The position numbers and the translations under genes are program-made. The notes beneath the pieces are model-generated. The model did no database searches. It was given only the letters and a program-made list of their open reading frames with translations, and was not told the origin of the DNA. Of a stretch of DNA of 64,000 nucleotides, positions 5,758 to 56,700 are shown piece by piece. This DNA is from Candidatus Omnitrophota bacterium (GTDB lineage Bacteria; Omnitrophota; Omnitrophia; Omnitrophales; Aquincolibacteriaceae). Position 1 is the first letter of the stretch. Every line of letters starts with the position of its first letter. The DNA lies in assembly GCA_903856085.1 (NCBI GenBank), contig CAIOAT010000013.1:295430-359429 (forward strand), in the 5' to 3' direction.

Positions 5758-6019
5758 CGTAACGATTAGCTAAAGTTAGTTGAAATGCTCTGAAGAATCC
5801 TGGGACCTCCCCTCGAACAGGGCTGTACAACAGCCTCAAGGAAAAGAACCCATGGCCGCAAATAATGTAACAAGGAAACACGGAAAATCAAAGGTAAAGA
5901 TCGACGAGAAAACTAAAAACAGCGCTGCAATAAATCGCAGAAAGCTACCGAGAAGATTTTGAAAAGCCGGGTCGATTTCTGACGACGGAACTTCTCGTGC
6001 CATGCGCGGCAAGAAATGC

Positions 6020-38622: not shown

Positions 38623-38738
38623 AGAGGGAATATACGGGATACTTCGAGAAAGTCAACTTTTCCGCAACGCTCCACGCACCAAGCATCGCGGACCACGTGC
38701 TGCGTCTACCATAGTCCGTGATTCGCGCAATGTTCGCC

Positions 38739-41700
38739 TTACGCGCTCTTCGCGGTCGCGAAATACTCGGCCTGCATCTGCTCGACAAACTTGCTCACGC
38801 CGAGGCCGGCGAGATTGAGGAAATTCCGGAACATCTTCTGATCGATCGTCACGATGTTTTCTTTCAGCTCTTCTGCCAGAAGTGCCGTCTGGGGATTATG
38901 CGCTCCCGCGAAAACCATGGCCTTCAGATTCCAGGAATCACGGATAGGTGCGGCTTCACGATCGGTTGCCAGAAGTTCTCTCGCTTCATCCAGATTGGCG
39001 GCCGACAGAATGGTGGGCCGATTCGCTTGACGAAGTTGCTGATTGATCTTTTCAAGAAAAACGCGATCGGTGGAACCTTTTTCAGACAAGACAACGACAG
39101 GAATAGCTCCGAATACATTCCGGATCACATAAATAAGGCCTCGCTTGAAGGCTGTTTCGGGATCAAGAACAAGCGCATCGCTCGCCTGGATCGTCTTGAC
39201 GCCCAGCGCACGATAAAGCATCTTGATCTTAAGCTTACTGAAGAAATTCTTCGGCTCACGGGTCAACGTGACCGGTTCTCCAGCATAAGCAGCCGGGATC
39301 AAATTCGACAAGATAATATCTTTTGCCTTGTTCGTATAAGCCAAGAGCGAAACGATGCCATCCGCAAGTTTTTCTGTAACACCCCGGATACCTTGTTCGC
39401 GTCCGCCACCCCTCCGGAAGTTATCCTCAAAAAAATCACGAAGCCCGGCTACCGGCGACGAGGGTTTCGTCTCTTCAGCCGATCTCAATTCAGAGCGTTT
39501 GTTCAGTTCCATAATACCCGCTTGCGGCGCGTTCATGAAATGCAAGATCTCATCCCGGACTCCAGGACGGCTCTCCAGAAGGTCCTGCACGGGCCCATAG
39601 AACTGTTTAAATTCATGCCCGGCCATCCCCAAATGCCAAACGCTTGGCGACTGGACCGCAACGTGCGCATAGGGCAGCTTGACGTAAGCAATGGCGTGGA
39701 TCACCTCGGGATCGATCACGATCGTATCCCCCGCCTGGACCTTCATCACATATTCTTTCGAATGCTGTGTTTTGATATAAAAACCCATAGCTCCGTCGGC
39801 GACGTAATACAATTCGATGGCCTGCGCGCGTTTCCCTTCATGCTCCAGGGAAGAGCGGTGGGAGTGCACTCGCTCCCTGTCGCCATAGAGTTTCTCATCG
39901 TAGCGTGACAGATCCCTCCCGGGAAAAGATCTTTCCTGGGGTGCGTCTTCCCGGATGAGAGATGCCCCGTTCCAAAGAAACTGGTCTTTCCCGTCTGCTT
40001 TCCTGAAATGAGTATAGGCGGAATTGGCCCACTGGGTCGGCATACGGGAACTCGCGTACATAAAATTCTGTTTATCGGAAAGGGCGATAACAAGCACTCC
40101 CAGTTCCTGGAGCTTTTCGTTTGAAACTACCGCGGAGCGATCCGGCCCCGGGTGCGGCAAAGCCCTGAAATCCTCGCTTCCAAAATCCTTGAACCACGGC
40201 GGTGCCTTCCGCATATGGATCATGAACTCGGCCCCGCTCAAATCCAGAAGATCCAGAGTCACTCCCGGCGCTAGGTCTTTTATTACGATCACGCCCCGCT
40301 CGTTGAGCTCAATGACCTCCCGGTAGTTTCCGTGATTGACCTTGATCTTGACGGCTCCTCCCTGGACGTTATAAATCTGGATCTCGCCCGCAAAACCTCC
40401 GGCGACCTCTCCAGCCGCGAGGGCGCGTAGATATTTTTCTATCTGAGGGCCGACGTAAAAACTCAGATCCGAATCGCCTTCAACCTTCTGTCCCATCTGA
40501 CCCATATCGATCGGTTGAGTGAGTAGCTGTCCATTCTGGAAACGGTAAAAGTTCCCTGTCTGATGCGGCACCAGGGGCTGTAATGCACCCAACTTGGAAT
40601 ATTCAAAACCATCCGCCTTGACGAACCTCTTGATCCCCGCGATCTTGGCGTAGATCATTTCGTCCGAAGACGGCACCGGCAGGATCTCGAAGAAATGGAA
40701 CTGCCCCGGCCTCAGGATCACATTCAACGGCTTCATTTCGTCGGGCGTTCTTATGAAGGTAAGATCGTTTTCATGGGGCCATTCAAGCGCTCCCTTCCAA
40801 AAGCGGGTGCCCCGGTCACGAAGAATGTAGAAGTTGGAGGAAAAATCTGCACCAAAATATTTCTTGAGATCCAAGGAGATCGCGGCCACACCGTCTTCGG
40901 TCCGGCCTTCGTGGGTGATCCCCAAGAACCATTTGCCGTCGTAAGAAGTCATGGAGGCGGCCACCGTGGCATTTTTAGCATTCCAATTTCGCACCTGGAG
41001 CGGCGTCACGGTACCTTCAAAAAATGCGCGGTGCGAAACGAGCTGATTCCGGAATCCTTGAGCAGGATGCACATTGATCATCCCTTCGGGTCGCTCACCG
41101 CGAAGGAGCTCTTCGATGGAAACCCCACGCGCTTCGGACCGCTGGAGCGGAATAGTCGCTTTAGGGACCCTCCGGACAGCGGTGAATGCGATGTCCTGAT
41201 AGCTGTTGATCTCAAAACCAGAGATCGTAATGGGGATCTGCTGGACGGGAACTTTACCGACGGCTCTATAAAAATCCGCGAACTCCTCGGCCGTCATGCG
41301 TCCCTGAACGGGATAGACCAGCGTCACGTGAAAAGGCCGTGGCGGATTACCAAGACCAAGATGTTTTGCGATCGTCCCTTGGACTACGGCCAATGGATCT
41401 TCTTTCCCGTCAGCTTTCCAGATCATGACCACGCCAAGATCCCGGTGCCAGTAGGGCCCGATCAATTTTCCGTGAACTTCGGAAACGGAAGAACTTCGAA
41501 ACGCCTGCCGCAAAGCTTCGGTTGTCTTACGAAGAAAACCATTGTCGACTTCCGCCGCCGTCACCCCATGCTTCAAGCCCTGCAAAGTCAGGTGAAGCTC
41601 ATCCTGAGGAACCGTCAGAACACGAGGTCCGAGCGCGCCCTGGATCTCGGCTTGGATCTGCGTCATTTTTTGGACCGCTGCTTCCTGGTCCTTCCCAAAG

Positions 41701-44700
41701 AAAACACAAGCTGAGGCTCCGCGAGCGGTCACGATCTTGCCGCCCTTGAAGTTTTCCGCGATCCTCGGTAATTCCACCGCCGGCTGATCGCTTTGTAATA
41801 GCGAATCCATTTGCGCCTGAGCTTCAGTCCAAAACGCGTTCGAGGGACTTTCTTTCAATAAGCCAACAACCTTCTTGGCGTTAGCACTGATTTTCTTGGC
41901 CCCAAGGGTCGTTTGGATCTCTTGGGTGTCCCTCATCTCAGAACGCTGCTCAGAGACAGAAAACTCTCCATCCCTAACTCCGCCCGCTTGTTGCGCCCAT
42001 ATCCTCTCGGTGTGAAAAGCCGCATCCTGCAAAGTAACATCGGACGGCAATAAGAAGACAGTCGCTCCAAACGCTCCTGTGAATTGAGGGTATTTTTCGC
42101 GCGGATCGATTTCCGCAACAAGCTCATAGACGCCTTTCTCACCAGCCTGCTGTAAAGGCTTAATAATCCCTTCCCCCGGGATCTCCTGATCATGCCACGG
42201 CGGAACCGAGGTCCCTTTGCCTCTCGGTCCAAAGTGGACGAAGAAACGAGCCCTCTGAAGAGCTTCGTGCTTCATCCGAACCAACAACTTCAGCTGAAAA
42301 CGTCCGGACGCCTGCGGCTCGATCCTTACGCCTTTTTCAGGAAATTCAATGGCTCCTGCCAATTCCGCTTTCGCAGCCCCCGGAAGCACCACGGTTTTCT
42401 TTTCTTTTTGAGAAGGAATTCCGACCGCGAAATAATGAAAGCCGTTCGCTTCCAACTCATAAGGATCGTAGAAATGACGTCCGTCCACAACATTGAAATG
42501 CTCTGTAACGGATTTTCCAGAGGCCTCGGTCATCCCTCCCTCAAAAAACAGTGTTCGCCAATCCGCGTATTCGGGCCATTCGGTCACCAAAATTTGGGCG
42601 TCACTACCGCGAATCGCCTCACGCGCATTTTCAGCTGCATTTGTTTTATGATCGAAAAATTCGACCCCTTTAAGGTCCATCGCCCTTTTTGAAAAATGGT
42701 TTCGCACACTCGAAGCTGTGGCAGGATGCGCGTCCGTGACCCGCACCTTGGCGCCCTGTGCTAGCAACGCTTCTATTAATTTCAGGGAGGGCGCATTTTC
42801 AATGGAAGAATTCGGCCCGGGCTTATAAGCAAGGCCCAGAAGTGTGACCGTTTTCCCGCTCAAATTGCCTCCGACCGCTTCGCGCGTCTTATCGACATAG
42901 AGTTTAACCGCTCGCTCATTGCTCTCAGCGAACGCGGTAACAAAAGGCACTCTTGTGTCTGTCCCGTTACTCCCGCTAAACCCATAATGGCGCTTTAGGA
43001 TCTCGATCTGTTCTCGATATTCCCGGAGTTTGTCCATAAGACCTTCGCTGTGACTCTCTGCGAATTTAGTAAATTTTTCAAGAGCGGCAAAAAGATCGAA
43101 TCCACCAAACCCGATCCCGGGCTTCAGGTAGAGGTCTCCCACGACAGGATCCGCGCCAAGGCCTTTGAGGATGTCGCGAATATCGCCTCCCGACCTTTCG
43201 GCCAGCTCCGCGAGCGAGATCATAAAAGCGATCCTTCCGGCGAGAAAAAATTCGATCGCTTTTTTCACGAATTCGTCCATTCCACGGGTCAGAGAAGTAC
43301 CGGTTTCCCCGACGAAAGGACTCGGCAGCGTTTCATGGCTGATACCAAAATATTGAAAACCAAAACCCGCAACCTCCGCGGGATCCCAGGCGTTGCGCCC
43401 GTCAAAAACAAGCGGCCTCTTCTCCCTGTCGGGGAACATCGTTTGAACCTTTTTAAAATTGAGCTGTCTGAACGCATCCCATTCAGTGACAAGCACGATC
43501 GCACTGGCCCCTTCCATCATGCTGTAAAGATCTTCCGGATTTTGAAAATACTGCACGGGCGCCGCAGTGCCGGTGCCCGGGGCCGGATTCAGATCCGCAA
43601 GGGTTTTTTGTAAAGAGGGGATCGCCACAGGATCATAAACCCGCACCTGAGCGCCCCATTCCACCAATTGACGGATGATCAAGATAGAACGCGCTTCCCG
43701 GTCGTCGCTGGTATTGGGTTTAAAAGCCGCGCCCAGCACAACGACGGTTTTGTCTTTCACCCCGTCGAGCTTTTGCTTGATCCCGTTCGCGAACATTTGC
43801 CACTGTGCTTCATTGACCGCAAAGGTATCCATCATGAGCCCGAAAGGCATACCGGCTTTCGCCAGCTGTCTCATGAAAGAAAGGGAATCTTTCGGAAAAC
43901 ACGACCCGCCCCATCCGATCCCGGCTGAGAGAAACATCGGTCGGATCCTGGGGTCCGCTCCGAGTTTTTCAGCGACCTTTTTGACATTGAATCCGAAAAG
44001 CGCAGCATACCAGCTCAGGTGATTGATGAATGAGATCTTCCAGGCCCGGTAACCATTGGCCGCATATTTGACGAGCATGGCGCTTTTGATCCCCATCTTG
44101 AAGATCGGGATGGGTTTCCCCGGGTATTGAGGATTGATATTTTTCGGATCGTAAAGCGCTGCCACCCGGTCGGCAATCGCCGGCTTCTCAGCGCCAACAG
44201 CCATGCGCCCGGAACCTCCGAGGGCATCCTCCACCTCCAACCCCTCGCGCAGGAATTCCGGGATCCAGGCAAATTCGATCTCGGCGCCTTGCGGAAGACC
44301 GACCTGGTGTATCCTGGCTTTCAGCCTGTCAATGGTCTCTGGCGGAGCCGTGCTCTTTCCGATAATGATCTTCTTCTCGCCGGGTTTCATCAGTCGGGCG
44401 ATATCAGCAACCGCATCTTCGAGGAAATGGGTGTCACTTTCCCCATTGGAAAGATAGGGCGTCGGCAGGGCCAGGTAGATGATCTCGCGGCCCTCGATCG
44501 CTCCAGCAAGATTCGTCGTGAATCGGAGACGTTTCGCCGCCAAGCCTGCTTGGAGGAATTCCTCAAGACCCGGCGCGTAATTGACCAGCTTTCCACCATT
44601 TAAGGATGCCACGCTCGCGGGCTTAATATCCACAGCGGTCACATCATGACCGAATCGGGCAGAAAGCATAGAAGCTTCCGTCGCACCCACAAACCCTGCG

Positions 44701-47700
44701 CCACCGATCACCGCGATCTTCTGAGCCTCGTGCTGTGGCCACGCCGCATTTAATGTTCCGGCGTCTGAGGTTCCTGTCCTCGCTTCAGATCGCATCCCCT
44801 GCGTCGCCCCCTCAGAAGAATTGACGCCCACCGGGACCATTTGAAGGACCTGAAAACGCCACCCCAGCTGAGCGATCCCCGCGGGATCTTTCCTCTTCAC
44901 CACTGAAATGCCGACTCTCCATCCTTCTTTTTGAATAGAAGATAATGTGTGTTTCTTTTCGTAATCGATTTGGAGCATATGATCCCGGGTCTGATACACC
45001 AGGCTGGACTCCAACCCGAGCAACGAAATGCTCCCGACCCCGAACCACACTTTTCCTTCCTCTTTATTATAAGGAACCTTCGAGAAATGGATGGGAACCA
45101 CAACATGACGCTTGTGCTCGAATCCGTCCTTTTCTTCCTTCAATACTCGCGCAAGAACCACGGCCGTATCCCGGCTCGAATCGAGAAAAAAGACCTCTCC
45201 TCTTTCGAAAAGATCTTTCGTCTCAGGACTCTGCATCATGTTTTTTAATGCCCCGTAAACTTCCGCATCCCACTCTTTCATGTCCTCAAGAAGTTCGGGC
45301 ACAAGCGTCGCGATAAAGGCCATCACGGGACGAACGCCCTCCACCCCGAAAATAGCGTGGGCTTTGTCCCTGCCGATACCGGAAACCGTCTGAAGAAGCA
45401 TTTTCAGGTCTTCGGGCTTAGTCCCCTGGATCATTCGCTTTAGCCAATAAGTCCTAGGCTTTTGCTGCCGCAACTGCTCTCCAGAATTTCCGGAAACAAG
45501 AGAGCGCAGATCGTCCAGGATCAGAGATCCTCGCTGTTCTCTTTTCTTTTCCGGCTTCATGACCCCCGCGGCCTGCAATTCAAGGATTTGAAAATCGGGA
45601 ACTCCGATCGGTAAAGCCCCCTCCATTAACACCGAAAGAGGATAAGGCTTCCTCTCCTCGCCCGCCCCGTAAACTTCCCCCGTGATCGTATTTACAATGT
45701 GATAAGTCATGGCAGCTTCTGGATCGAGCATGTCCGTGAGCCATTGAAACGCTTTGTTTCCGTAAAACTGTCCCCAGGCCTTCGATTCTCCTCCGTCGAT
45801 GGCAGGATATTTTTGCTCTCCCAGATTAAGTCCTATGATGTATTTCTTATCGCCGACCTGAACGCCAAACCCTACAAGCTTTTTGTTCAAGGAACCGAAC
45901 CTCTTTCCCTTGGATTCCAGCAGGAAATAGAGGTTCTGCCGGAAAAGCTCATCCCTAAAAAGCCTTTCGTATTCTTTGCTGCGCGACTGAATGTAACCCT
46001 GCAAGACGGTCTCGGAGAGTTGGACCACAAAACGATCAAAAAGCCGGAGCGCCGCCAGATGAATCCGGACTTTTTCTAAAAGATCGTTCGTTTTGTCAGC
46101 CTCCGCCTTGAGCCGCATCATTTCCTGATAAAAATCGGGAGCTTCCTTTTCGAATCCTTCGAAATAATAAAGGATCTTTGCGAAGATCTCGCCCCTCGCC
46201 GCGTGATACGCGATCGACTTGTAGCTCTCGACGCCATGCGTCCGTACTTGCCGGGCGCTTTCAACAAACGTCAGGACTCCGGGAGGAGCGATCTCCAGAG
46301 CATTCGAAGGCTCACTCCTCCAGACAAATCCTCCGTCATTCCCGGATTTTTTTGAAAGAAATCTCAAAGCGCTTTCGGCAGAAAGTCCCGGCTTTGCCAA
46401 CAGAGCTTTTTGTTTCTCGGATTTCTGAACGACCCTCTGCCAAAGCTTGATATGCGCCCTTGCCTGACTTTTTTCCATATCGACCAGAGGCGAGGACCGG
46501 AGCGCTTCCCACTGAAGATTCATTCTGTCGCCAGAGACCGCGTATGCCTTTTGAAGGGCGATAAGGTCCTCGATCATGGATTCCGCGAGTGGATAAGGGG
46601 CGTTGACGACCTTGATATTCCCGTTGTCGTCGAGAGTGCTTAAGATGAACTTGCCGTCGCCATCCTTGCTGTAAAACACCAGAAAACCATTCGTGATCTT
46701 CCACTTTTTTGATTTGAGATTCTCAACCACCTGTTCGTAAGTGATCTTATCTCTAAAAATATCCTTTTCGAGCCCAGTCTCATTATCCACGATGGTGAAA
46801 AGTTCCGGCTGCGCGCCTCCCCAGGCCCCCATCAAAATGGCCCCGTTCGGCAGACCTTTCATCATACTGGTCGCGGAAGCCTCAAGGATCATGTAGGTGA
46901 TCATGACGGTTCCGGAAACGCCCTGGAAAATAATGGGCGCGTCTTTAATATTGTAGTTCTCGATGGTCGCGAATTTATCTTCGAGTTTAAGTTCCCGGAT
47001 AAGACGCTGGATCTCCAAGAAGAGCCCGTGCGCCTCATCATCGAATTCCCGGCCGCCGATTATGGCGCGCGCCGCCGTCTTTTTATACTGTTCGAGTTTG
47101 GCAGGATCTGCCGCTAGCGACCGGAGAATCTCAAGCCATTTGTCCGGCCCCTTGTAAGAAACCTGTCTGCGCACATTCGAAACGATTGCTGTTAAAAGGA
47201 ATTGCTTCCTGAGCGCCTGGGCCTTGGGATCCTTAAAGATCTGTTGCCATTCACTCTCATCTTCCAACGCCTTTTGGATCCGGGCTTGAAGATCTGCCAC
47301 AACCTGAGGCCCATCCACTTCCGTGATACCGAATTCTTCCTGATACGACTTCATCGCCTGATCGAACCATTCGGGTTTGTTCTGGCTTGCCTTGAGCCAT
47401 AGCATCAGCCGCCCCGCAAGGTAGGACTTGATCATGTCCGTTCTTTCCTTGAATTCCCCCAGGAAAGCCTCATTCCCCGGATGGCCAATCTTGATGAAGA
47501 AATCCCGGTCATCCGATTCAGAAGACATCCCGAGTTTCGCTTTGTAAGTATTGATCAATTGACGCAAAAACGGCGCCTGCCATTGTTCGAGCAGTACCCC
47601 GTTGGTGCTCCGCAGCCCACCCTGGTTGAAGCTATCGATCACATCGACATACCCCGGCATCACGCCTCCGGACACCGCGGGCGTATGCTCGTACAACGCA

Positions 47701-50700
47701 ACACCGGTCACGAGATCGTAAGAAATTCCCACCGCATCCACGATGCTGATCGTTCCATTCCTGATAATGCGCGACCGCATCGCCTGGGGATACCCCAAGA
47801 GTTGAAATGAGGCTTCAGCCGGCCGGTAGATGGTCGGCGAATACACAGAATGATTCATGTGGTGATGAGGCGCATCCGGAAAAAGAGGCGTCGGGATACT
47901 GGCGAAGACCTCGTTATCCACAAAGAGAATTTTCTTTTTAGCGATGCCCTTTTCCTGGAGTTTTAGCGTAAGGAGTTCTTTGGTTTTCCCATAAACTGCC
48001 AGATGCAGATCACGCCAAAGATTGGGACCGCCATCACGAGTATCCGGATAAACTTCATCAAAGATTTGGACCTTTGTCCCATCATCGGCAATATAAAAAG
48101 CCTCGATATAAAAATTCGGCATCCCGCCGGAAAATGTGTTTGTCGGATAAACCTTAACTTTGATCTCGCGATCCACCGCTTCTCGGGCTTGCTGGAGCCG
48201 TTTCTTATACAGCGGGTCCCCTGCGCGTCCGATCCATTCCTCAGCTTTGGCGCGGTATTCATTGCCAGCATCGAGAAAAATACTAAAACTCAATCCAGGA
48301 TCTTCGGTCAAAACCTCGCGAAGATAATCCCCCAGCGTCTTCTTACCGCTCGTCACTTCCTCCGGAAGATCTTTGGCGAATTCCTGTCCCTTGATCCGGT
48401 CATAGATCACATTCACGGCAAAAGCGTCGATGTTCGCTTTCTTGGGCTGGCCAAAATTCTTTTGCCACGAAGGAAAAAGATCATGCATCAGAGCTCCTAA
48501 TCCCCCCGTCACGGTTGTTGCTGCGACCAAGCCCGCAATCGTTTTGCCATATTTTTCTTCAAGCTTCTTTAGGATTTCACGATCCAACCCCGCCTCGAGT
48601 TGCCCAGTAACAACGGTATAATCCTCTAGCTCGGGAGCATTTTTCTCGGCCCAGGAACGCAATTCGGCGCGCTTGGAATTTGCTTTTTGAGCCACGCGAA
48701 CCATGGCTTGCGCGATTTCAAGACCATTTCCCACAGCCCCGCCTTCGATCACAGGCAAAACATTCTCGGACACATATCCGGCAGATCCGAGAGCATAAAG
48801 AAGCAATTGACCGCTCTCCTCCGCAGCCTGAACTCCCCTCGAGATACTGCGCGGCATGTTGCTTATAAATGCCGCAAGTTCTGAAATCGTCGGAAGATAA
48901 TGAGGCATGAAAACCGCTGCGATCGCAGCAGGATCCGCCGCCCGAGCTTCGGAACGAAGGGCAGCAAGAGGAATGCCATTTAAATGGAACGCGTTAAAGC
49001 GGGCTGTTTCATATAATTTTTTAAACTCCGGAACCAACTCGTCCCAGTCGCGGACAGAATTCATCCCGCGTGCTCGCATATCATAAAAGGCTTGGGGATC
49101 GTTCATGTAGACCGCAACAGCTCGCTCAGTAGCCTCATCAAAAAGCTTCATGACTGCTTCAAAGGACGGGGTTTTCTCAAGATCTTTGATCTTGTTCAAT
49201 CCTGGAAAATAGAACTTGAAGCCTGTGGCCATCGCCGCGTCTTCCTTGGGGTCCAGGACCGTATTATCAAGCCCGCCCACCGCATGCACGATCGGGATTC
49301 CGCCATACCGGAGGGCCTGCATTTGGCCAAGTCCGCAGGGTTCAAATTTTGAGGGCATAAGAAAAAAATCTTCCGCGGCATGTGCCTTCCGAACGAGCGT
49401 TTCACTGAAGGCGGGCGTGAAATAGGCGCGCCCCGGGAATTGCGCCATTAAGGCCCTGAAACCCTCCGCGTAGTGATTTTCCTCCCCGATCACGGCGATT
49501 TGAGCATTCGGATGCCGATTCAAGAGCCGGCGTGCTTCTTCAAGGATCAGCTCCGGACCCTTTTGATCCGCAAGTCGCGTAGCCGCCACAAAAAGCATGG
49601 CGTTCGGGTTTTGCTGGAGGCCGACTTCTTTTTGAAACTCTAATTTATTCGCACGCTTGCCTTCGGCTACGTTTTCAGACGTGTATTTTTGATAGATTTT
49701 GTTATCCTTCGATGGATTCCAAACACCGCTATCCACTCCGTTCAAGATCCCCGTGAAATCATCTTTCCGTTCGAGAAAAACGCCTTGCAGACCCGTGTCG
49801 GGATCCGCAAGAAGTTCTTCGCGATATTTCGGGCTCACCGTCATGAATTTTTCCGAAAAAACAAGCCCGGCCTTCATCAGATTGAGCCCGCCATGGAATT
49901 CGAGATACTTCCACCCAAACGCCCATTCGGGCATCCCCATGGACATAAGAAGCTGTTTGCCGTAATTAAAAAGATCCGGACCATAACGCTGTTGATACGC
50001 CGCATCAGCATTATGGATCGTCATCGTGATCCCGGAGGTCTGGAATTCACTGGGGAAAGCGGCTCGGATAAAAGCCGCGACAAGTCCCGGATGCGCGTCG
50101 TGTAGATGAATGATGTCGGGTTTCTTGACAGCGAATTTTTTACGAAGGATCTCCACGGCGGCACGAGAAAAAACCGCGTATTCCCGGAGCCCGTCGAGAC
50201 TTCCGGAACTCCAGTAGCCTTTTTGAAAATAACCGTCTTTCTTGATGAAATAATACCGGACACTGTGCGCAACTGCGGTATAAACCTCAAAAGTTTCCTC
50301 GCGCCCTTCGATGGGGATCTTCACAGTAAACCCAGCATTTTCAACTTTGAAAGTTTTCTGGGTAAAAACCGAGGGGTGGCCCGGCATGATCACAAATTGA
50401 TGAGCCCCTAAATGTTTTAAAAGCGCCGGCGGTTTTTCCCGAACGACATCTTTCACTCCCCCTTTGCCAAAAAAATCCGCCGATTCCATCGCGATATGAA
50501 CCACATCGTGGACCGGCATAGTCATGGCTTCATCGTTTCGCACCTCACTCCGGACTTTTCGGCTCGTAGGGGGCGCAGAACGAAACGCCGCAGGCAATAT
50601 GTTTATATGAAGCTGCTGCCCTAAAAATAACGGGTTAAAGTTTCCGGCAAGTTCCGCCGCCACACTCAGCGCAGCCTTTTGAAAACTTTGGGGAGACACA

Positions 50701-53700
50701 GCCATAAGGGTAAATGAAGGTCCCGTAGCATTCCAAACAGGCAACCCCAAGACCGCAAACCCTGCTCCGCTGAAAGCAAGGATCGCTTCCTTTTCGAACT
50801 GAAGGTGGGAATATGAGCGATTAGCCCTCTTCTCGGAGCGAAATCCCCCGGAAAATGCGGGCTTTCTCACGCGAGAAGAAGTGAAGTGGGCCTGACCGAG
50901 AGAGTCCACGCCGGTGAGCCGGAGGGTGAACTCTAAATCTTCGCCTGTTGTCCCGCTCGGAATTTTCGATTTGAATTCAAAACCGACATCGCGCCACTTC
51001 AAATCAACAGAGGGCATAGAAGCGCCCCGGGAGGGGTCATAAAGGGTCGAGGAAACCTCAAATTGGGCCTGACTTCCTTGGCTTTCACTCTGACGCAGTT
51101 TTGTTTCGGCTAAACGGATCGTGATGCCCGGAAAAATTTCCGCCGTTTTCCCGGAGCTCAGCGTAACCAGATGTTCAATTTTGCTGAAATCGAATGGATC
51201 TTTGATTGACTCAACAAGCGTTCTGTTTTCAGCTGTCGGCTGACCTTCATCCCGTATTTCGGAACGAATAAATTTTGCGGTCGAACCCTGCGGCAATGTC
51301 ACAGTGGGAATTTCATCCAGCGGACGCGGTTGAATGCTGAGAGGAACCTGGATGTTTTCCTTAAACTCTGTTTGCAAGATCCTTTCCACCACCGGGATTG
51401 CGCGAAGGATTCCGTCCTGAATTTTGTCACGCCCAAGGCCATCATAAAACCAATCCAAAATGGGAGCCGGCGCTCTTTTTTGACCTTCCTTATAATGAGG
51501 GTCTGTTTCGTTTAAAATAGCAACAATCACTGCGTCTGATATCTGACCTGTGGTGTTTAATTTTGACTGGATAAGCGCCACGGCTTTGGCTTTATCAATC
51601 TTCAACCGGTCTCTCATATTCATAGCAGAGTAAAAAACATCCCCGGCAAACTCTCTTCCGAGGAGCTTCCAAAGAACCACTCGCTCAAAACCTGTCGCGT
51701 TGCTTAGAAGATACCGTTTGGGACTTTGCGGATCTCCCCATCTTCCGTTGTAATCACCCCAAAAAGCATTCACGAGCGCCTGCAGGGACTGTCCATACTT
51801 GAGCTCCTTGGGCGGCTGAGGAAGGCTTCCCATTTTTATATTTTGCATCCACTGAGGAGCGACATACATCTTATCGGGTGTCTGTTTCAACAAGCCTTCA
51901 GCCCGGATTTTCTCAATGGCCTGCACCGCCAACTTCCGCGTATCCGGCCAGGTCCTATTCAATTCGGCCAAAGCAACGGCCACTGCTTGGGCGGCTTTTG
52001 CCCTTATTTCTTCCATCCTTTTTATAGAAGCGGCATCCTCCGCCGCGCCGGCGAAACGGATCGGCTTCCCAACCATCCGGCTCGCATTCATATAAAATCT
52101 TTCGGCCGACAAGGCTCCGTCAAAACGAATTTCGACATAAGGCTCGCTGCCACCCCCATAGGACTCCACAGTCCCGATTCTTCCGGCCCGCTCCACGCGC
52201 ACTCCTGCCATTCCTTTAACGCCTTTGAGATTCAGGGGCACCTCTTCCCCTCCCCGCATCTCGGCACGGATTTCGCCAACAGCGCTTGGCTCCGACGTTG
52301 CAAAAGAAACCATCAAAATATCGCCACGCGTCAATTGAGTCCCGCTCTCGCCGAGCACTTGAATTTTCCTGATTTTAGAAGAATTAAATTTCCCAATCTC
52401 CCTGATGGCTTGCGGCATTGAAATATCTTCCTTGATAAGAAATTCGCCCGGAGCCAGCTCCTTGATCAAAGAACTTAGACCCGCGTTTCCTCCTTCTAAC
52501 TCACTGGCTATTGCATCCAACCGCCGCATTAGCCCCAATGTCAAAGCGCGATAGGGAGCCAGTATCTCAATGACCGAATTGACGGTTCCGATCACTTGCA
52601 ACAGATCCGCCGGGAAATAGGTCAAGGCTTGGGTTAACACACCCAGAACTTCGTGCTTGTCGTTGGGATTGAGCGAATAATTTGAATCAATTTCTGTGCG
52701 GATAGCCTTAAGCTCCGCAATCATTTCTCCCATGCGAGCTTCGGTGATTTGAGGAGCCTGCTTGCCCGCCCGCACCTCGGAGCGGACTGCTTTACCCGGG
52801 GATTTCTGTGACAGTGCCACCGATGGGATCTCGTCCATCGGGCGGGGTTTGAGCGTGATCCCGATCTCAAGCCCCTTTTGGACTTCCGCCTGGAGGATTC
52901 TTTCCACCACGGGGATGGCGCGAAGAACCGCTGATTGGACATCGAACCCGCCCTCATTCCATCTTGCAACGGCCACCGGAGCTTTGGAATTTCCGGGCCT
53001 TGCTTCTCCCCATATTTCCTCAATGGTTTTATCGGAGATACGCCCGTATTTCAATTTAGACCTTATCTGCCAAGCTGTTTTCCCTTTTTCATCCTTAAGC
53101 CTTTCCCGAAGATTGAACGCGGAAAAGAAAACATCTCCGGCCAGCTCATGCCCCAAGATCTTCCAAAGCACGAAACGCTCCACGCCTGTCGCATTGCTAA
53201 AAAGATACCGCTCTTTCGCCCTTCCGTTATAAGCTCCCCAAAAAGCCTCCACCAAGCCTTGCAGGTCTTGGGCATACTCGGCGTCCGTCATTTTACGATC
53301 TTCTTCCTCTTCGCCGAGATTCTTGGGAGGCATTGCCGAACTGCTTGCAATGGCGATTTTTTTCATCCAACGGGAATGAACATACATCCGGTCGGCGGAT
53401 TGGTTCACAAGACTTTCTTTTTTAATGAGCGCGATGGCTCCTTTTGCCAGACCCGTTGTTTTAGTCCAGGTCTTCGCCAATTCACTGGCAGCTTTTTGCG
53501 CTTCAGCTTCCGCAGCCTTTCGCGATCCCAGCTCTTCCACCTCCGAGGCAAAAAGAAGGGGTTTTCCCACCGAGGCGCTGCCTCGTAAATAAAACGGTTG
53601 GATATCACTCTCTCCGTCGAAAAGGATCTCCAAAAACGGTTCTTTTCCACCGCCATAACCCTTTACGGTTCCAACCTTTCCGCCCCGTGTCACGCGGACA

Positions 53701-56700
53701 TTCATCTTCCCTTTGATTCCCTCTAAGTTCAGTGGTACCTCGCCCATGTTTCTCACCTCCGAGCGCGGGAAGAAGAGGATCGTCACCACGGAGCCAAGGA
53801 TTTGGTCCCGGCTCCAGGATTCCATGGAAAAAGATTGGCTCCTTTTCAAACCCGCAGGATCTATATGAAGGGCTTGGTCGCCGCGCTGTGCGTCCATATC
53901 CATCAGGCCCTCATGAGCTCTAAATTGACGGATCAGCGTATCAATGAAGAGCTGCCAGGCCACCTTCGGATCCCCCGGCAGGCTCCCGTCCCCCGCAGGG
54001 ATCTCCACGGCCAGGGCATCGGCTCCCTGAAATTCCGCGGCCCGTTCGGATAAATGAACCACGGCTTTGTGATTGCGCAGAAAGTCCGGAAGCACTGATT
54101 TTCCGACCCCTTCAAGACCTTTTAAAAAATCCGCTTCGTTAAAATTGGATGCAAGCATGATTTCATCGGGAAGCTCTCCCGGGCCAACCGGGCCAACCCC
54201 CGCAACAAACGCGGCAACGCCAATGCGGTGGGTTAGGGTGTGTACCATGGGACCGATGTCTTCATCTTCAGCCTTAGAAAAAAAGTTTTGAAGAAGCTTA
54301 TCCAGCGCTCCCTGGAACAGAAGGGTCTGAGGTTCTTTTGTTTTTTGAAAGGTCTCTAAAGCCTGGGTGATAGGAGCGGCTACGGCGCCAACCGCGGATA
54401 AAACGAGGTCATTCCGACCGCCCTTGTACACGTCTTCGAGGATCTTGTTAAGCATTTTGCGGACCATTCGGAAATTTTCCGCATTAATCTGGCTCTGCTG
54501 TCCCCGGATCGCTTCGATCACTTCCCTTATCTGCCCGACAGCCTTATCCCGCGCTTCAGCGCGGGGCGCCAAAAACAGATTGGTTTGGATGTTGGGGCCA
54601 AGCCAGCGATAAACGCCCTCCGGCAACCGGTCCTTTGATTCCATAAGAGCACGCGAAGGATCATCCGTGGCAGCCGGAACCAAGAGAAATATTCCTTCGT
54701 AGTCTTTCCAGTTGTAATAAGGCGTCGTAAAAGCGGAGCCTAGAAGTTTCACCTGGTTGGCCGGAAGGCCGTAGCTCTGCATAGAGGCTTCTGAAAAGGT
54801 CCAAGATTCTTTTTGTTTCGAATTCCCCCAGCGCAGATAAACTCTGAAATTCCCGGCGTTAAGGAATGCGTCGCGTGCTGCCGAATCCGGGAATTCCAAG
54901 GTCGAAGAAAAATCAGCCCGGTCCCCGTGGATCTCCACCTTGCCATCCTTCGAGCTCATGACCGGCAGAATTGGATTTGAACGCACTTCGGCGCGGGGCG
55001 AACCGGCCGCGGGAGCTGCGTGTCCTACTGGCCGCATAGCCAACGAGGGACTTTCGGGTGTCATTCTTGCCAACACCCGATAGGCTTGCTCGGTCTCATT
55101 ACTTTTCTGATCTTGAAGAAAGGGCGTTAACCGGATAAATTTACCGAGCCCCAATTCATCAAAACTCCCGGTCGCAAACCTGACGCTTTTTTCTACGATC
55201 CGGATCGAGTTATCTTCACGCTTGCGAAGAATCGCAACGATCGGGAATTCGCCCTGATACGCTTGCAAAACCTTTGGTGTTGCATCCTGCGCGCCTTGAA
55301 CGGAGAGTTCGGTTTTTTCAAGCCCTGCTCGGAAAGAAACCCGCCCCTCGGATCCCACCACGCGATATTCCAGCGAATGGTCAGGATGTAGGACAAATCC
55401 CCAAAAGTTTGGATCTGCAGGCAAGGTTCCATCAAAACTGATAACGCCCAAGTATTGATCATCCGCCGGCAGGATCTTCACGCCGCCATAGGTCGCATCA
55501 ATCTCTTCGCCCAATGTTTTAAAAAATACGTCGACTCTTGCCGCGCGCAGTTCGGGGCGAAACAAACCCGAGGGTTGAGGCTGAGATTGCCGCGGGGAAA
55601 CGCCAACGGCAGAAGCAATGATTTTTTTGAAGCCCGCATCAAACTCCGCCCTATTCTCCGCGCTGCGATCGTGGTAAGAAGCAACGGTCTCGCGCACAAT
55701 ATCGCGAATCCTGGCAAAACGGACCGCAAGTTCGCGACGCCAAAAACGCGGCGACACGGCGCTAAAAAAAGAGACCTGCTGGGTGACTTTTTCAGGAGCG
55801 ATATGAGAACGCGTAATCGCGTTGGAGCCAAGAAGCGCTGTCAGATAATTTTTGTTGGAATCGGCTGTGATCTCGCCGATGGAAGGCATGATGCCGATAT
55901 AAGAACTGCCGGAGGCTGTGATCGCCTGTTTAAAACCCTCGGTGTGAAAACCACCGGTGATGATGACCGCTTTCGTCTGCTTGCGCTCCTTCATCACTTC
56001 GCGCGCCCTCTTCATCATAAAATCTTCACGCTCGATGGCGCCGGAGTAAAAATTCAAAGCTTGCTCGTTAAGTTGCTGTAAGGCGGGCAGCGTGTCGCGT
56101 ACGGCGCTCTCTTTGCCCCGCACCCGATCAAGCGCTTGCATTAACTCGGAAGGAGAAATTTGACGTGACAGAACTTGCTGATATTCTCCGCGAGAAAGCT
56201 CCAAATGAAACAGCTTTTTAAGGAGTTGGTATTCGCGAAGCGAGCGCACAAGCGTTTTTTCCTCATCAGTTTTTACAAGGACTTCGACCAAGGACGCAGT
56301 AAGCTTTTTAATCTCGGACTGAAGCACCTCGCTCTGGAGTTCGCTTATAAGGATCATTTGCTGGATGCGAAGGCGGAGGTTCGGGTAAGCATTAAAAGAA
56401 AAGTCGGCTGGTAACGCATCCATCAGACGCTCGAAAACGAAGCGGGTCTTGTAGAGCGGCAAACCGCCTTTTTTCGCCATTTCGAACATCGCATTCATTT
56501 CATCTCCAAGCTTCTTTTCACCGTACTCCGTACTCTGTACTCCGTACTTAGCGATATCGCGTAGAAACGTTGCTTTCTCCGCTTCAACTTTTGAGAGATC
56601 AATCTTCCCATCCAACGATCTCAGCCGGAAATAGCGGACCAGGGTCGGCCACGCAAGCTGCGCCTTAACATCTGTAAGATCATTTCGTAGGATCGTATTC

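What the first reader, a model, noticed from the sequence alone, without database searches (positions are those of the whole stretch)
46746..50522. Opposing alpha-glucan synthesis (GT5) and phosphorolysis (GT35) activities encoded on one polypeptide
The GlgA-like domain (aa ~2302-2820) is followed after one linker by a glucan phosphorylase-like domain (from aa ~2935). Synthase and phosphorylase are normally separate, reciprocally regulated proteins. Their covalent linkage suggests a futile-cycle-proof processing scheme, a scaffold, or dedicated glucan remodelling.
Basis: partly seen in the sequence, partly recalled or inferred. Interest (0 to 1): 0.6.

Follow-up and report, generated by a model that had tools for sequence, protein, structure and literature searches.

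The report
Glycogen synthase–phosphorylase modules in giant protein
A real glycogen-synthase domain and a very divergent glycogen-phosphorylase-like domain sit side by side inside a 6,228-residue, apparently exported, modular protein of an Omnitrophota bacterium, so the pair looks like part of an exported sugar-polymer enzyme array, not a cytoplasmic anti-futile-cycle device.

Summary
Window 38739-57425 (-) is one 6,228-aa ORF. Residues 2306-2812 are a GT5 glycogen/starch synthase: TIGR02095 scores 344 bits against a cut-off of 328, and PDB 1rzu matches at 3e-49. Residues ~2920-3800 belong to a deep-branching GT35-like clade. This sequence scores below Pfam's threshold (18.9 vs 27 bits). The assignment rests on relatives that pass it, a profile that hits only GT35 in the PDB, an AlphaFold model whose top hits are GT35 phosphorylases, and invariant catalytic motifs including the PLP lysine (K3523).

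The protein starts with a signal-peptide-like N-terminus. It consists of about 16 modules delimited by a conserved R-S-E-x-R pentapeptide, found 15 times against 0.3 expected. It belongs to a mostly Omnitrophota family of 2,000 to >7,500-aa proteins. In these, the GT35-like module co-occurs with debranching enzyme, MalQ, amylase, phosphoglucomutase and UDP-glucose dehydrogenase modules. GT5 directly precedes the GT35-like module in 8 of 195 relatives.

My best reading is an exported, possibly proteolytically processed, alpha-glucan-processing enzyme array, functionally reminiscent of Chlamydia's secreted glycogen enzymes. I class it as a new variant of a known kind.

The parts
38739..57425 (-). 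Giant ORF, 6,228 aa, made of about 16 modules
   Evidence: ORF list and translation. A gene of the same length was called on a 149.6-kb contig of a separate assembly record.
57327..57425 (-). Predicted Sec signal peptide, aa 1-33 (MNCLKRLQR / LFAGVIVVTFFVTNTL / TPAPVAYG|Q)
   Evidence: This is the only strongly hydrophobic stretch at the N-terminus. Relatives show the same n-h-c pattern ending in AHA, AYA or AFA. This is inferred from the sequence; no signal-peptide predictor was available.
55560..57326 (-). N-terminal conserved module M01 (aa 34-622), a candidate Tiki/ChaN/EreA-like hydrolase
   Evidence: Shared by many relatives. Invariant residues are H..Q..H, EG, R and GGFH. Weak PF04187 hits in 8 of 15 members. 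The AF2 model has pLDDT 84.6, but fold matches are not significant.
50538..50552 (-). RSEVR delimiter preceding the GT5 module (aa 2292-2296)
48957..50537 (-). GT5 glycogen/starch synthase module (aa 2297-2823; HMM match 2306-2812)
   Evidence: It keeps E2695 (equivalent to E. coli E377, in SKFEPCG), R2617/K2622 (R300/K305) and the HD-x-H motif. The KTGGL motif is GKGGV here (aa 2320-2324).
48942..48956 (-). RSEAR delimiter after the GT5 module (aa 2824-2828)
48672..48941 (-). 90-aa spacer module of unknown function (aa 2829-2918)
   Evidence: No Pfam hit at E<=1
48657..48671 (-). RAELR delimiter preceding the GT35-like module (aa 2919-2923). Its position is conserved in more than 20 Omnitrophota loci.
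46026..48656 (-). GT35-like, putatively PLP-dependent, alpha-glucan phosphorylase module (aa 2924-3800). The PLP lysine K3523 is at nt 46857-46859.
44793..46025 (-). C-terminal extension that travels with the GT35-like module in Omnitrophota relatives (aa 3801-4211), function unknown
   Evidence: Co-conserved in L001-L015 and others. No Pfam hit.
41946..44777 (-). UDP-glucose 6-dehydrogenase module plus a second copy lacking the NAD-binding domain (aa 4217-5160). By my reading, the second copy's catalytic-Cys block GGSCFPKD is replaced by GGFDLFAA.
   Evidence: Pfam and NCBIfam hits. The Cys-block replacement was read directly from the translation.
38742..39482 (-). Conserved C-terminal module M16 (aa 5982-6228), unknown function. 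In relatives it is preceded by an RSExR motif.
57696..59897 (+). Divergently transcribed 733-aa paralogue of module M01, with its own signal-peptide-like N-terminus
   Evidence: (22% identity over 466 aa, E 1e-17)

Best explanation
The region encodes two adjacent, probably active, catalytic modules. One is a GT5 NDP-glucose:alpha-1,4-glucan glucosyltransferase. The other is a deep-branching GT35-like, PLP-dependent alpha-glucan phosphorylase. Both lie within a 6,228-aa, Sec-signal-bearing, modular multi-enzyme protein of an Omnitrophota bacterium.

The protein is one member of a family of giant enzyme arrays. In these, a signal peptide plus conserved N-terminal module and a conserved C-terminal module bracket variable enzyme modules, each delimited by an R-S-E-[LVMA]-R pentapeptide.

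I propose that the array is exported to the periplasm, the cell surface or a host/prey interface, and that the two modules act in sequence and not against each other. The synthase traps NDP-glucose as alpha-glucan. The phosphorylase, together with debranching, MalQ, amylase and PGM modules in relatives, converts alpha-glucan to glucose-1-phosphate. This would be analogous to the glycogen enzymes that Chlamydia secretes.

The RSExR motifs most likely mark flexible inter-module junctions that serve as proteolytic processing sites. If so, the gene would be a polyprotein that delivers a fixed set of enzymes together.

Shown: the domain identities, the conserved catalytic residues, the motif enrichment and its positional conservation, and the family architecture. 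Inferred: export, processing, substrate, and direction of flux.
For: GT5 identity.

GT35-like identity:
- Four relatives from the first search pass PF00343's gathering score, as do P0004 and L008, at 27.2 bits against 27.
- Every hit listed for the family profile in the PDB is a GT35 or alpha-glucan phosphorylase, best E 3.6e-6.
- The AF2 model has pLDDT 74. Its 19 best Foldseek hits are GT35 phosphorylases aligned over ~890 columns, E down to 1.9e-8.
- hhalign against E. coli MalP/GlgP gives probability 92%, E 5e-7.
- GGLG, N-H, T-N-G..W, R-R-Q-V-x-Y-K-G, GGR, E-A-S-x-T and the PLP Lys are invariant or nearly so in 34 family members.

Family and architecture: 41 loci, mostly Omnitrophota, almost all within ORFs of 2,000 to >7,500 aa, with shared N- and C-terminal modules.

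Alpha-glucan context in relatives:
- GT5 lies immediately upstream of the GT35-like module in 8 of 195 relatives.
- GH13 amylase, GH77 MalQ x2, GDE_C debrancher at 2e-98 and PGM.
- PPDK_N plus PEP-utilizer domains.
- UGDH in 4 of the 26 relatives scanned, besides this protein itself.

RSExR motif:
- 15 in this protein against 0.34 expected from shuffles.
- 0 in 11,914 residues of the other 30 genes in the window.
- 5-19 per protein in most full-length Omnitrophota relatives, sitting exactly at module starts.
- A sharply defined logo from 417 instances.
- Variable codons, so selection acts on the peptide and not the DNA.
- The motifs lie next to low-confidence ends of both AF2 models.

Signal peptide: conserved n-h-AxA N-termini.

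Precedent and biology: Chlamydia trachomatis secretes GlgA, GlgP and other glycogen enzymes and uses host UDP-glucose (PMC4829429), and also secretes its PGM (PMC9251005). Omnitrophota are inferred to be predators or parasites with giant ORFs of unknown function (PMC10066038). GT5 and PPDK domains are known to be common in their giant proteins (bioRxiv 10.1101/2023.11.21.568195).
Against: - No experimental data exist on localisation, cleavage or activity.
- NDP-glucose, NAD+ (needed by the UGDH module) and phosphate-driven chemistry are normally cytoplasmic, so an exported array needs an external supply such as a host cell.
- The signal peptide is judged by eye only.
- The GT5 module has lost the canonical Lys15 of KTGGL (it reads GKGGV), as have the GT5 modules of other giant proteins. 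Its donor, or even its activity, is therefore uncertain.
- The GT35-like module is too far from canonical GT35 for HMMER to connect them in a 1.84-billion-protein library: only 238 hits were found.
- The AF2 model is low-confidence around the PLP block (residues 586-623), and TM-scores are only 0.40-0.49.
- The equivalence of R3420/K3425 to GP R569/K574 rests on motif spacing, not on a significant alignment.
- Most of the protein (aa 623-2291 and others) has no recognisable function.
- The protease idea for M01 is not supported at significance.
Confidence: 0.5

Rival explanations
1. An uncleaved, cytoplasmic (or membrane-tethered, cytoplasm-facing) bifunctional synthase-phosphorylase uses covalent linkage to coordinate or channel glucan synthesis and phosphorolysis, for glucan remodelling or to avoid a futile cycle.
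For: Both modules are on one ORF and appear catalytically competent. The GT5-then-GT35-like order recurs in 8 relatives. In L023, which has almost no RSExR motifs, the two domains are only ~7 aa apart, which suggests that physical linkage can matter. All cofactors and substrates (NDP-glucose, Pi, NAD+) are cytoplasmic.
Against: A signal-peptide-like N-terminus is conserved across the family. Two conserved RSExR delimiters and a 90-aa spacer lie between the domains. The GT5 partner is absent from most relatives, whereas GT35-like, the module used to retrieve them, is present in all. Co-expression of glgA and glgP from one operon is already normal in bacteria, so fusion adds no obvious anti-futile-cycle logic.
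Confidence: 0.17
2. Both modules work in the synthetic direction. The GT35-like enzyme uses glucose-1-phosphate to make or extend malto-oligosaccharide primers, as proposed for plant Pho1, and the GT5 module then elongates them. The result would be an extracellular or surface alpha-glucan, such as a capsule or coat.
For: Phosphorylase reactions are reversible (established enzymology of GT35). UGDH and epimerase modules in the same proteins point to polysaccharide building blocks. 'Ca. Velamenicoccus' is described as coated (PMC10066038).
Against: Relatives combine the GT35-like module mainly with catabolic partners: debrancher, MalQ, amylase and PGM. GT5 is rare among them. No branching enzyme or G1P-generating module was seen.
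Confidence: 0.13
3. The GT5 and GT35-like modules are catalytically dead carbohydrate-binding or structural units within a giant surface adhesin.
For: Giant Omnitrophota ORFs are usually interpreted as adhesins or coat proteins (PMC10066038). The GT5 module has lost K15 of KTGGL, the Trp of HDWH and the GxGD loop. The second UGDH copy in the same protein is degenerate.
Against: The complete GT35 catalytic constellation, including the PLP Lys, is invariant across 34 members at 24-69% identity. That is hard to explain without catalysis. The GT5 module keeps E377, R300, K305 and H161 equivalents and passes the curated glgA HMM cut-off.
Confidence: 0.1
4. The ORF is an artefact: a chimeric assembly, or a decayed string of pseudogenes read through by chance.
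For: Its length is extraordinary and most of it is unannotatable.
Against: The frame is open for 18.7 kb with uniform composition. A gene of identical length with the same neighbours was called in a second assembly record. Dozens of homologous giant ORFs with the same N- and C-terminal modules exist in other genomes.
Confidence: 0.02

Closest known systems
Bacterial glycogen synthase GlgA (CAZy GT5; TIGR02095; PDB 1rzu, 2qzs)
   Same: Full-length GT-B match, 31-38% identity to ordinary GlgAs. The catalytic Glu (FEPCG), R300/K305 (RLxxQKG), NGVDxxxWNP and the His of HDxH are conserved.
   Different: It is embedded at aa 2297-2823 of a 6,228-aa exported protein. K15 of KTGGL is replaced: the motif reads GKGGV, with the Lys shifted by one. 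The Trp of HDWH is Ala, and the GxGD loop is altered. No close relative exists in a 5.8-billion-protein database: the best hit is 38% identical.
Alpha-glucan phosphorylases GlgP/MalP/glycogen phosphorylase (CAZy GT35; PF00343; PDB 7tm7, 2ecp, 2c4m)
   Same: The predicted fold and size match. All signature blocks occur in the right order and spacing, including the PLP-lysine block EASATSMMK..NGA..GGAxPE and the R-x-x-x-Y-K phosphate-site block.
   Different: Identity is only ~11-13%. This sequence scores below the Pfam and NCBIfam cut-offs. A large helical insertion lies between the TNG and RRQVxYKG blocks, and NDTH is replaced by DNEV. The clade has only ~240 detectable members, nearly all inside giant multi-module proteins. 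A co-conserved ~410-aa C-terminal extension follows it.
Omnitrophota giant proteins ('Archaeovorins' and related; West-Roberts et al., bioRxiv 10.1101/2023.11.21.568195; Seymour et al., PMC10066038)
   Same: Same phylum. They are multi-enzyme giant ORFs in which GT5 glycogen-synthase-like, PPDK, PGM and other sugar-metabolism domains are reported. Extracellular location and post-translational cleavage have been proposed for them.
   Different: This protein is smaller (6.2 kaa, against 20-85 kaa). It has a single N-terminal signal-like segment instead of many TM helices. The full text of that paper does not contain the word 'phosphorylase' and says cleavage points are unknown. Here a GT35-like module is present in every relative retrieved (it was the query), and a positionally conserved RSExR delimiter is defined.
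Secreted glycogen-metabolism enzymes of Chlamydia trachomatis (Gehre et al. 2016, PMC4829429; PMC9251005)
   Same: Synthase, phosphorylase and accessory glycogen enzymes, including PGM, act outside the bacterial cytoplasm to capture host sugar nucleotides and release hexose phosphates. I recall from memory that Omnitrophota is assigned to the same PVC superphylum as Chlamydiae; no tool result or cited paper here confirms this.
   Different: In Chlamydia these are separate proteins exported by type 3 secretion. Here they are modules of one Sec-signal-bearing giant polypeptide. The analogy is functional and inferred, not homologous delivery.
Known fusions of alpha-glucan enzymes (TreS-Mak; GlgB-MalQ in Neisseria; chlamydial GlgA-GlgB), reviewed in PMC11046441
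   Same: Consecutive pathway enzymes are fused in one polypeptide.
   Different: Those are two-domain cytoplasmic proteins. The fusion-related passages I searched in that review show no GT5-GT35 fusion.

Membership tests
GT5 glycogen/starch synthase (GlgA, TIGR02095) | Full-length match to the curated family HMM above its cut-off | tested here: met
   TIGR02095 scores 344.3 bits against a cut-off of 328.45, covering model positions 2-476 of 477. PF08323 matches at 9e-40. None of the GlgA equivalog models is reached; the best is 296 bits against 616.
GT5 glycogen/starch synthase (GlgA, TIGR02095) | Catalytic and nucleotide-sugar residues: E377, R300, K305 and H161 in E. coli numbering (residue roles from my knowledge of the E. 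coli GS literature) | tested here: met
   Alignment with E. coli GlgA and 10 homologues shows SKFEPCG (E2695), TRLADQKG (R2617, K2622) and HLHDAH.
GT5 glycogen/starch synthase (GlgA, TIGR02095) | N-terminal K-[TV]-G-G-L motif with Lys15 | tested here: not met
   The motif reads GKGGV, so Lys15 aligns with Gly and a Lys follows one position later. Of the 11 reference GlgAs in the alignment, 10 have the Lys and one has Arg (RGGL). GT5 modules of other giant proteins also lack it: GTGGL and DKGGL.
GT35 alpha-glucan phosphorylase (PF00343) | Match to the family HMM above the gathering threshold | tested here: not met
   This sequence scores 18.9 bits against 27, and 26.6 against 191.7 for TIGR02094. 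Relatives P0002, P0003, P0006 and P0007 score 30-36 bits, P0004 scores 34.3, and L008 scores 27.2.
GT35 alpha-glucan phosphorylase (PF00343) | PLP-binding lysine in the E-A-[SC]-G-x-[GS]-x-M-K-x(2)-[LM]-N block (PROSITE pattern quoted from memory) | tested here: met
   EASATSMMKGLPN aligns with EASGTSNMKFMMN of 2c4m. E, A, T and K are invariant in 34 members. The literal pattern is missed at two positions (G to A, and L/M to P).
GT35 alpha-glucan phosphorylase (PF00343) | Phosphate and glucose site residues: GP G135 (GGLG), H377, N484, R569, Y573, K574, E672, S674 and T676 (roles from my knowledge of the phosphorylase literature) | tested here: inconclusive
   Motif equivalents are invariant in the family: TGGLG, NH[ST]V, TNG, RRQVxYKG and EASxT. 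The TNG and PLP blocks are aligned by hhalign at 92% probability. The RRQVxYKG = KRxHEYKRQ equivalence rests on spacing only, and the N-terminal half did not align significantly.
GT35 alpha-glucan phosphorylase (PF00343) | GT35-type GT-B fold of ~800 residues | tested here: met
   The AF2 model has pLDDT 74.2 and pTM 0.65. The top 19 Foldseek PDB hits are GT35 phosphorylases, with probability 1.00, ~890 aligned columns and E 1.9e-8 to 2e-6, but TM-scores of only 0.40-0.49.
GT35 alpha-glucan phosphorylase (PF00343) | Phosphorolysis of alpha-1,4-glucan with bound PLP | not testable with these tools
   This needs recombinant protein.
Tiki/TraB/ChaN/EreA hydrolase superfamily (for N-terminal module M01) | Significant sequence or fold match, and paired His-containing motifs plus conserved Glu and Arg | tested here: inconclusive
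   PF04187 is hit weakly by 8 of 15 members, best E 0.0085. Conserved residues are H..Q..H, EG, R and GGFH. The PDB profile search was empty. Foldseek finds EreC, BcR135 and ChaN only at E 0.6-1.8. hhalign against E. coli YbaP is not significant.
Proteolytically processed polyprotein | Demonstrated cleavage at defined inter-domain sites by a cognate protease | not testable with these tools
   Only indirect evidence is available: a conserved, peptide-level RSExR motif at module boundaries.
Sec-exported protein | N-terminal signal peptide with n-, h- and c-regions and an AxA-type cleavage site | tested here: inconclusive
   The pattern is visible and conserved in 10 relatives, but no predictor or experiment was available.

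The most novel reading that the evidence does not exclude
The gene is a bacterial polyprotein. A Sec-exported precursor is cut at its R-S-E-x-R junctions, perhaps by its own N-terminal Tiki/ChaN-like module or by the adjacent 733-aa paralogue. This releases a stoichiometric set of glycogen and sugar-nucleotide enzymes (synthase, a new GT35-like phosphorylase, UDP-glucose dehydrogenase and others). These enzymes then operate outside the cell or inside a prey or host cell to siphon its sugar pools. It would be an Omnitrophota counterpart of Chlamydia's secreted glycogen pathway, built on a previously unrecognised motif-delimited module system.
Probability: 0.2. Interest if true: 0.9.

Novelty: new variant of a known kind. 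Interest (0 to 1): 0.62.

Why it matters
1. It defines a deep-branching GT35-like clade with an intact PLP catalytic constellation. Standard annotation misses this clade, and it lives almost exclusively inside giant modular proteins.

2. I found no GT5-GT35 fusion in the prokaryotic alpha-glucan review I searched. Here the fusion recurs in several lineages and is predicted to be extracytoplasmic. This bears on how host-dependent Omnitrophota might exploit host or prey carbohydrate, in parallel with Chlamydia.

3. The R-S-E-x-R delimiter gives the first concrete, testable candidate for where Omnitrophota giant proteins might be cut. The giant-gene literature states explicitly that cleavage points are unknown. 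The motif also gives a practical rule for splitting these proteins into modules for structure prediction and expression.

Tried and rejected
- Single-sequence searches of the GT35-like module were only marginal: PDB phmmer E 0.028, and Pfam and NCBIfam below cut-off. Family alignments were therefore needed.
- Global hhalign of the family against E. coli MalP/GlgP mis-aligned the N-terminal half. Only the local C-terminal alignment is trustworthy.
- The 1.84-billion-representative hmmsearch did not bridge to canonical GT35.
- A literature search for the pentapeptide strings returned only noise. A search for Omnitrophota plus 'glycogen phosphorylase' returned nothing relevant.
- I considered that RSExR is a DNA-level recombination or repeat signal. 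I rejected this because the codons differ at every instance.
- I considered an assembly artefact and rejected it.
- I looked for stand-alone glgA, glgB, glgC or glgP in the window by reading the translations of the larger ORFs, and recognised none. No family search was run on those ORFs. The rest of the genome could not be searched with these tools.
- Pfam at E<=1 on the nine unannotated modules gave only weak LigT (3.8e-4) and cupin (0.018) hints.

Full report
WHAT IS THERE

The finding lies inside one uninterrupted ORF, window 38739..57425 on the minus strand, encoding 6,228 aa. Base composition is uniform across the ORF. A gene of exactly 6,228 residues, with the same neighbours, was called on a 149.6-kb contig of a separate assembly record. 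The ORF is therefore real and not a chimeric assembly.

THE SYNTHASE MODULE

Residues 2306-2812 match Pfam Glyco_transf_5 (9e-40) and Glycos_transf_1 (3e-13). They match the curated glgA subfamily model TIGR02095 end to end, at 344.3 bits against a cut-off of 328.45. They match solved bacterial glycogen synthases, with 1rzu at 2.9e-49.

The nearest database proteins are ordinary ~480-aa GlgAs at only 31-38% identity.

I aligned the module with E. coli GlgA (fetched) and ten homologues. It keeps:
- the catalytic Glu in SKFEPCG (E2695);
- the R/K pair in TRLADQKG;
- NGVDxxxWNP;
- the His of HDxH.

It differs in three places:
- the N-terminal KTGGL is GKGGV, so Lys15 becomes Gly and a Lys follows one position later;
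- the Trp of HDWH is Ala;
- the GxGD loop is altered.

GT5 modules in related giant proteins also lack Lys15 (GTGGL, DKGGL) but keep FEPxG and QKG. The module is a GT5 synthase by family test. Its donor-site detail is atypical, so its donor sugar nucleotide is uncertain.

THE PHOSPHORYLASE-LIKE MODULE

On its own, this sequence fails family thresholds: PF00343 scores 18.9 bits against 27, and TIGR02094 scores 26.6 against 191.7. PDB phmmer reaches only E 0.028, although that alignment is the PLP block EASATSMMK..NGA..GGAQPE against EASGTSNMK..NGA..DGANVE.

Family-level evidence settles the assignment:
- A word-indexed search found nine relatives. Four of them pass PF00343's gathering score, and one carries a C-terminal GH13 amylase domain.
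- A profile of these sequences hits only GT35 and alpha-glucan phosphorylases in the PDB list, best E 3.6e-6.
- An AlphaFold2 model of aa 2920-3800 has pLDDT 74.2 and pTM 0.65. Its 19 best Foldseek hits are GT35 phosphorylases aligned over ~890 columns, with probability 1.00, E down to 1.9e-8 and TM 0.40-0.49.
- hhalign of a 34-member family alignment against E. coli MalP/GlgP gives 92% probability, E 5e-7, over the C-terminal half.

Across those 34 members (24-69% identity to the window), the following blocks are invariant or nearly so:
- TGGLG;
- N-H-[ST]-V;
- T-N-G..W;
- N-V-R-R-Q-V-x-Y-K-G-P;
- G-G-R;
- E-N-Y;
- E-A-S-x-T-x-x-x-K (K3523);
- N-G-A;
- G-G-A-x-P-E.

By order and spacing these correspond to the GGLG loop, H377, N484, K568/R569/Y573/K574 and E672-K680 of glycogen phosphorylase. 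The residue roles come from my knowledge of the phosphorylase literature. The R/K-block equivalence rests on spacing and not on a significant alignment.

The clade is small and remote. A profile search of 1.84 billion representatives found only 238 hits at E<=1e-3. Most lie inside proteins of 2,000-7,900 aa, and canonical phosphorylases were not reached.

A ~410-aa extension (to aa 4211) follows it and is co-conserved in Omnitrophota relatives.

THE CONTEXT CHANGES THE INTERPRETATION

Fifteen R-[SAP]-E-x-R pentapeptides divide the protein into about 16 modules.
- Shuffling predicts 0.34 such motifs.
- The other 30 genes of the window (11,914 residues) contain none.
- The GT5 module is bracketed by RSEVR (aa 2292) and RSEAR (aa 2824). 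A 90-aa spacer follows, then RAELR (aa 2919) opens the GT35-like module, and RSEAR (aa 4212) closes it.
- Codons differ at every instance, so the constraint is on the peptide.

A scan of GTDB species genomes with the family patterns returned 41 loci. Most are Omnitrophota, with a few Elusimicrobia, Planctomycetia and Eisenbacteria. In nearly all of them the module sits in an ORF of 2,000 to >7,500 aa. Many share the window protein's N-terminal module (aa 1-622) and C-terminal module (aa 5977-6228).

In most of the full-length Omnitrophota relatives the motif is 10-40-fold enriched. It aligns exactly at the start of the GT35-like and C-terminal modules. It is absent from the non-Omnitrophota relatives. 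A logo from 417 instances is R100 S86 E100 [L/V/M/A] R100, with small residues before it.

The N-terminus of the window protein is MNCLKRLQR-LFAGVIVVTFFVTNTL-TPAPVAYG|Q. Those of ten relatives end in AHA, AYA or AFA. They look like classical Sec signal peptides. The only strongly hydrophobic N-terminal stretch is aa 10-28.

A divergently transcribed 733-aa neighbour (57696-59897) is a paralogue of the N-terminal module and has its own signal-like N-terminus.

WHAT TRAVELS WITH THE GT35-LIKE MODULE

Local HMM searches show that 8 of 195 GT35-like-containing sequences also carry a GT5 domain. It is always immediately N-terminal to the GT35-like module. They are the window protein, L001, L002, L023, P0204, P0207, P0252 and P0281. 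In L023, which has almost no RSExR motifs, the two domains are ~7 residues apart.

Pfam censuses of 26 relatives, plus three scanned individually, found:
- GH77 4-alpha-glucanotransferase (2);
- GDE_C amylo-1,6-glucosidase (2e-98);
- GH13 amylase (2);
- phosphoglucomutase (2);
- PPDK_N plus PEP-utilizer domains (2);
- UDP-glucose dehydrogenase (4);
- an NAD epimerase;
- unrelated enzymes: cytidine deaminase, DHDPS and methyltransferases.

So the GT35-like module recurrently keeps company with the classical glycogen-degrading set. This supports an alpha-glucan substrate. GT5 is an occasional partner, not an obligatory one.

MECHANISM

I consider it most likely (about 0.5) that this is an exported modular enzyme array. 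In it, the GT5 and GT35-like modules act sequentially on alpha-1,4-glucan outside the cytoplasm: the synthase traps NDP-glucose as polymer, and the phosphorylase releases it as glucose-1-phosphate. The RSExR junctions would serve as flexible and probably proteolytic boundaries.

Export, cleavage and flux direction are inferences. The strongest objection is that NDP-glucose and NAD+ are cytoplasmic metabolites. This is why a host or prey interface is attractive. Omnitrophota are inferred to be predators or parasites with unexplained giant ORFs (PMC10066038). Chlamydia trachomatis secretes GlgA, GlgP and other glycogen enzymes, and its PGM, to build and degrade glycogen from host UDP-glucose outside the bacterium (PMC4829429; PMC9251005).

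The rival explanations are:
- a purely synthetic primer-plus-elongation pair making a surface glucan (about 0.13);
- catalytically dead binding modules of an adhesin (about 0.10), which is disfavoured by the invariant catalytic residues;
- an artefact (about 0.02).

The idea that the N-terminal module is the processing protease is only a lead:
- weak PF04187 (ChaN/Tiki superfamily) hits in 8 of 15 members;
- a confident AF2 model, pLDDT 84.6, with only non-significant EreC, BcR135 and ChaN fold matches;
- no PDB profile hit;
- no significant hhalign match to E. coli YbaP.

COMPARISON WITH WHAT IS KNOWN

GT5 domains are already reported as the second most common domain type in Omnitrophota giant 'Archaeovorins'. 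PPDK and PGM domains, and the suspicion of extracellular location and post-translational cleavage, are also reported. That paper's text contains no occurrence of the word 'phosphorylase', and it states that cleavage points are unknown (bioRxiv 10.1101/2023.11.21.568195).

The passages on fused enzymes in a recent review of prokaryotic alpha-glucan enzymes mention TreS-Mak and GlgB-MalQ fusions, but no GT5-GT35 fusion (PMC11046441).

In E. coli, glgA and glgP are adjacent and co-oriented in the order glgC-glgA-glgP. Co-production of synthase and phosphorylase is therefore ordinary. What is unusual here is the covalent, exported, motif-delimited setting, and the remoteness of the phosphorylase-like clade.

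VERDICT

- The finding is a new variant of known kinds: GT5 and GT35 enzymes, and Omnitrophota giant multi-enzyme proteins.
- The most valuable by-products are the unannotated GT35-like clade and the RSExR delimiter, which makes the question of whether giant proteins are processed directly testable.

Noticed in passing
window 38739-57425 (-): motifs at aa 623, 811, 955, 1221, 1548, 1720, 2054, 2196, 2292, 2824, 2919, 4212, 5161, 5429 and 5977: An R-[SAP]-E-x-R pentapeptide delimits every module of the giant protein. There are 15 against 0.34 expected, and none in the other 30 genes of the window. It is conserved at homologous module boundaries in Omnitrophota relatives, and its codons vary, so the constraint is on the peptide.
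   Followed up: yes
window 57696-59897 (+): A divergently transcribed 733-aa protein is a paralogue (22% identity over 466 aa) of the giant protein's N-terminal module. It has its own signal-peptide-like N-terminus and the same H..Q..H / GGFH motifs. It is a candidate trans-acting partner or protease.
   Followed up: partly
window 51267-52253 and 52785-53750 (-) (aa 1725-2053 and 1226-1547): Two modules of unknown function are 45% identical duplicates of each other (E 5e-88). Neither has a Pfam hit.
   Followed up: partly
window 41946-44777 (-) (aa 4217-5160): A complete UDP-glucose 6-dehydrogenase is followed by a second copy that matches only the central and C-terminal UGDH domains. By my reading of the translation, its catalytic-Cys block GGSCFPKD is replaced by GGFDLFAA, so it is probably a pseudo-enzyme.
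   Followed up: partly
window 41142-41930 (-) (aa 5166-5428): Weak LigT-like 2H-phosphoesterase signal (PF02834, E 3.8e-4, 21 bits against 23.3), with two H-x-T-x motifs (HLTL, HVTL) visible in the sequence.
   Followed up: partly
window 39498-41126 (-) (aa 5434-5976): Weak cupin signal (PF07883, E 0.018). Otherwise this 540-aa module is unannotated.
   Followed up: no
L002:482-15289 and L004:1853-15823: Close relatives carry PPDK_N plus PEP-utilizer mobile domains upstream of the GT35-like module. This domain pair is also found in glucan-water dikinases. L002 also has a cytidine/dCMP deaminase module.
   Followed up: no
L018 (ORF aa 3334-4139 and 4320-5130): One relative carries two tandem GT35-like modules within an ORF of more than 7,400 aa.
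   Followed up: no
window 2521-8071 (-): Two large putative glycosyltransferase genes (1,078 and 683 aa, the latter GT2-like by eye) lie next to a CHASE2-GGDEF-like gene (8135-9874). This looks like a separate polysaccharide locus about 30 kb from the giant gene. The assignments come from reading the translations only.
   Followed up: no
window 38718-39908, 40695-41714, 51726-52421 and others (+): Several ORFs of 150-400 aa on the strand opposite the giant gene are almost certainly spurious shadows of the long coding frame.
   Followed up: no
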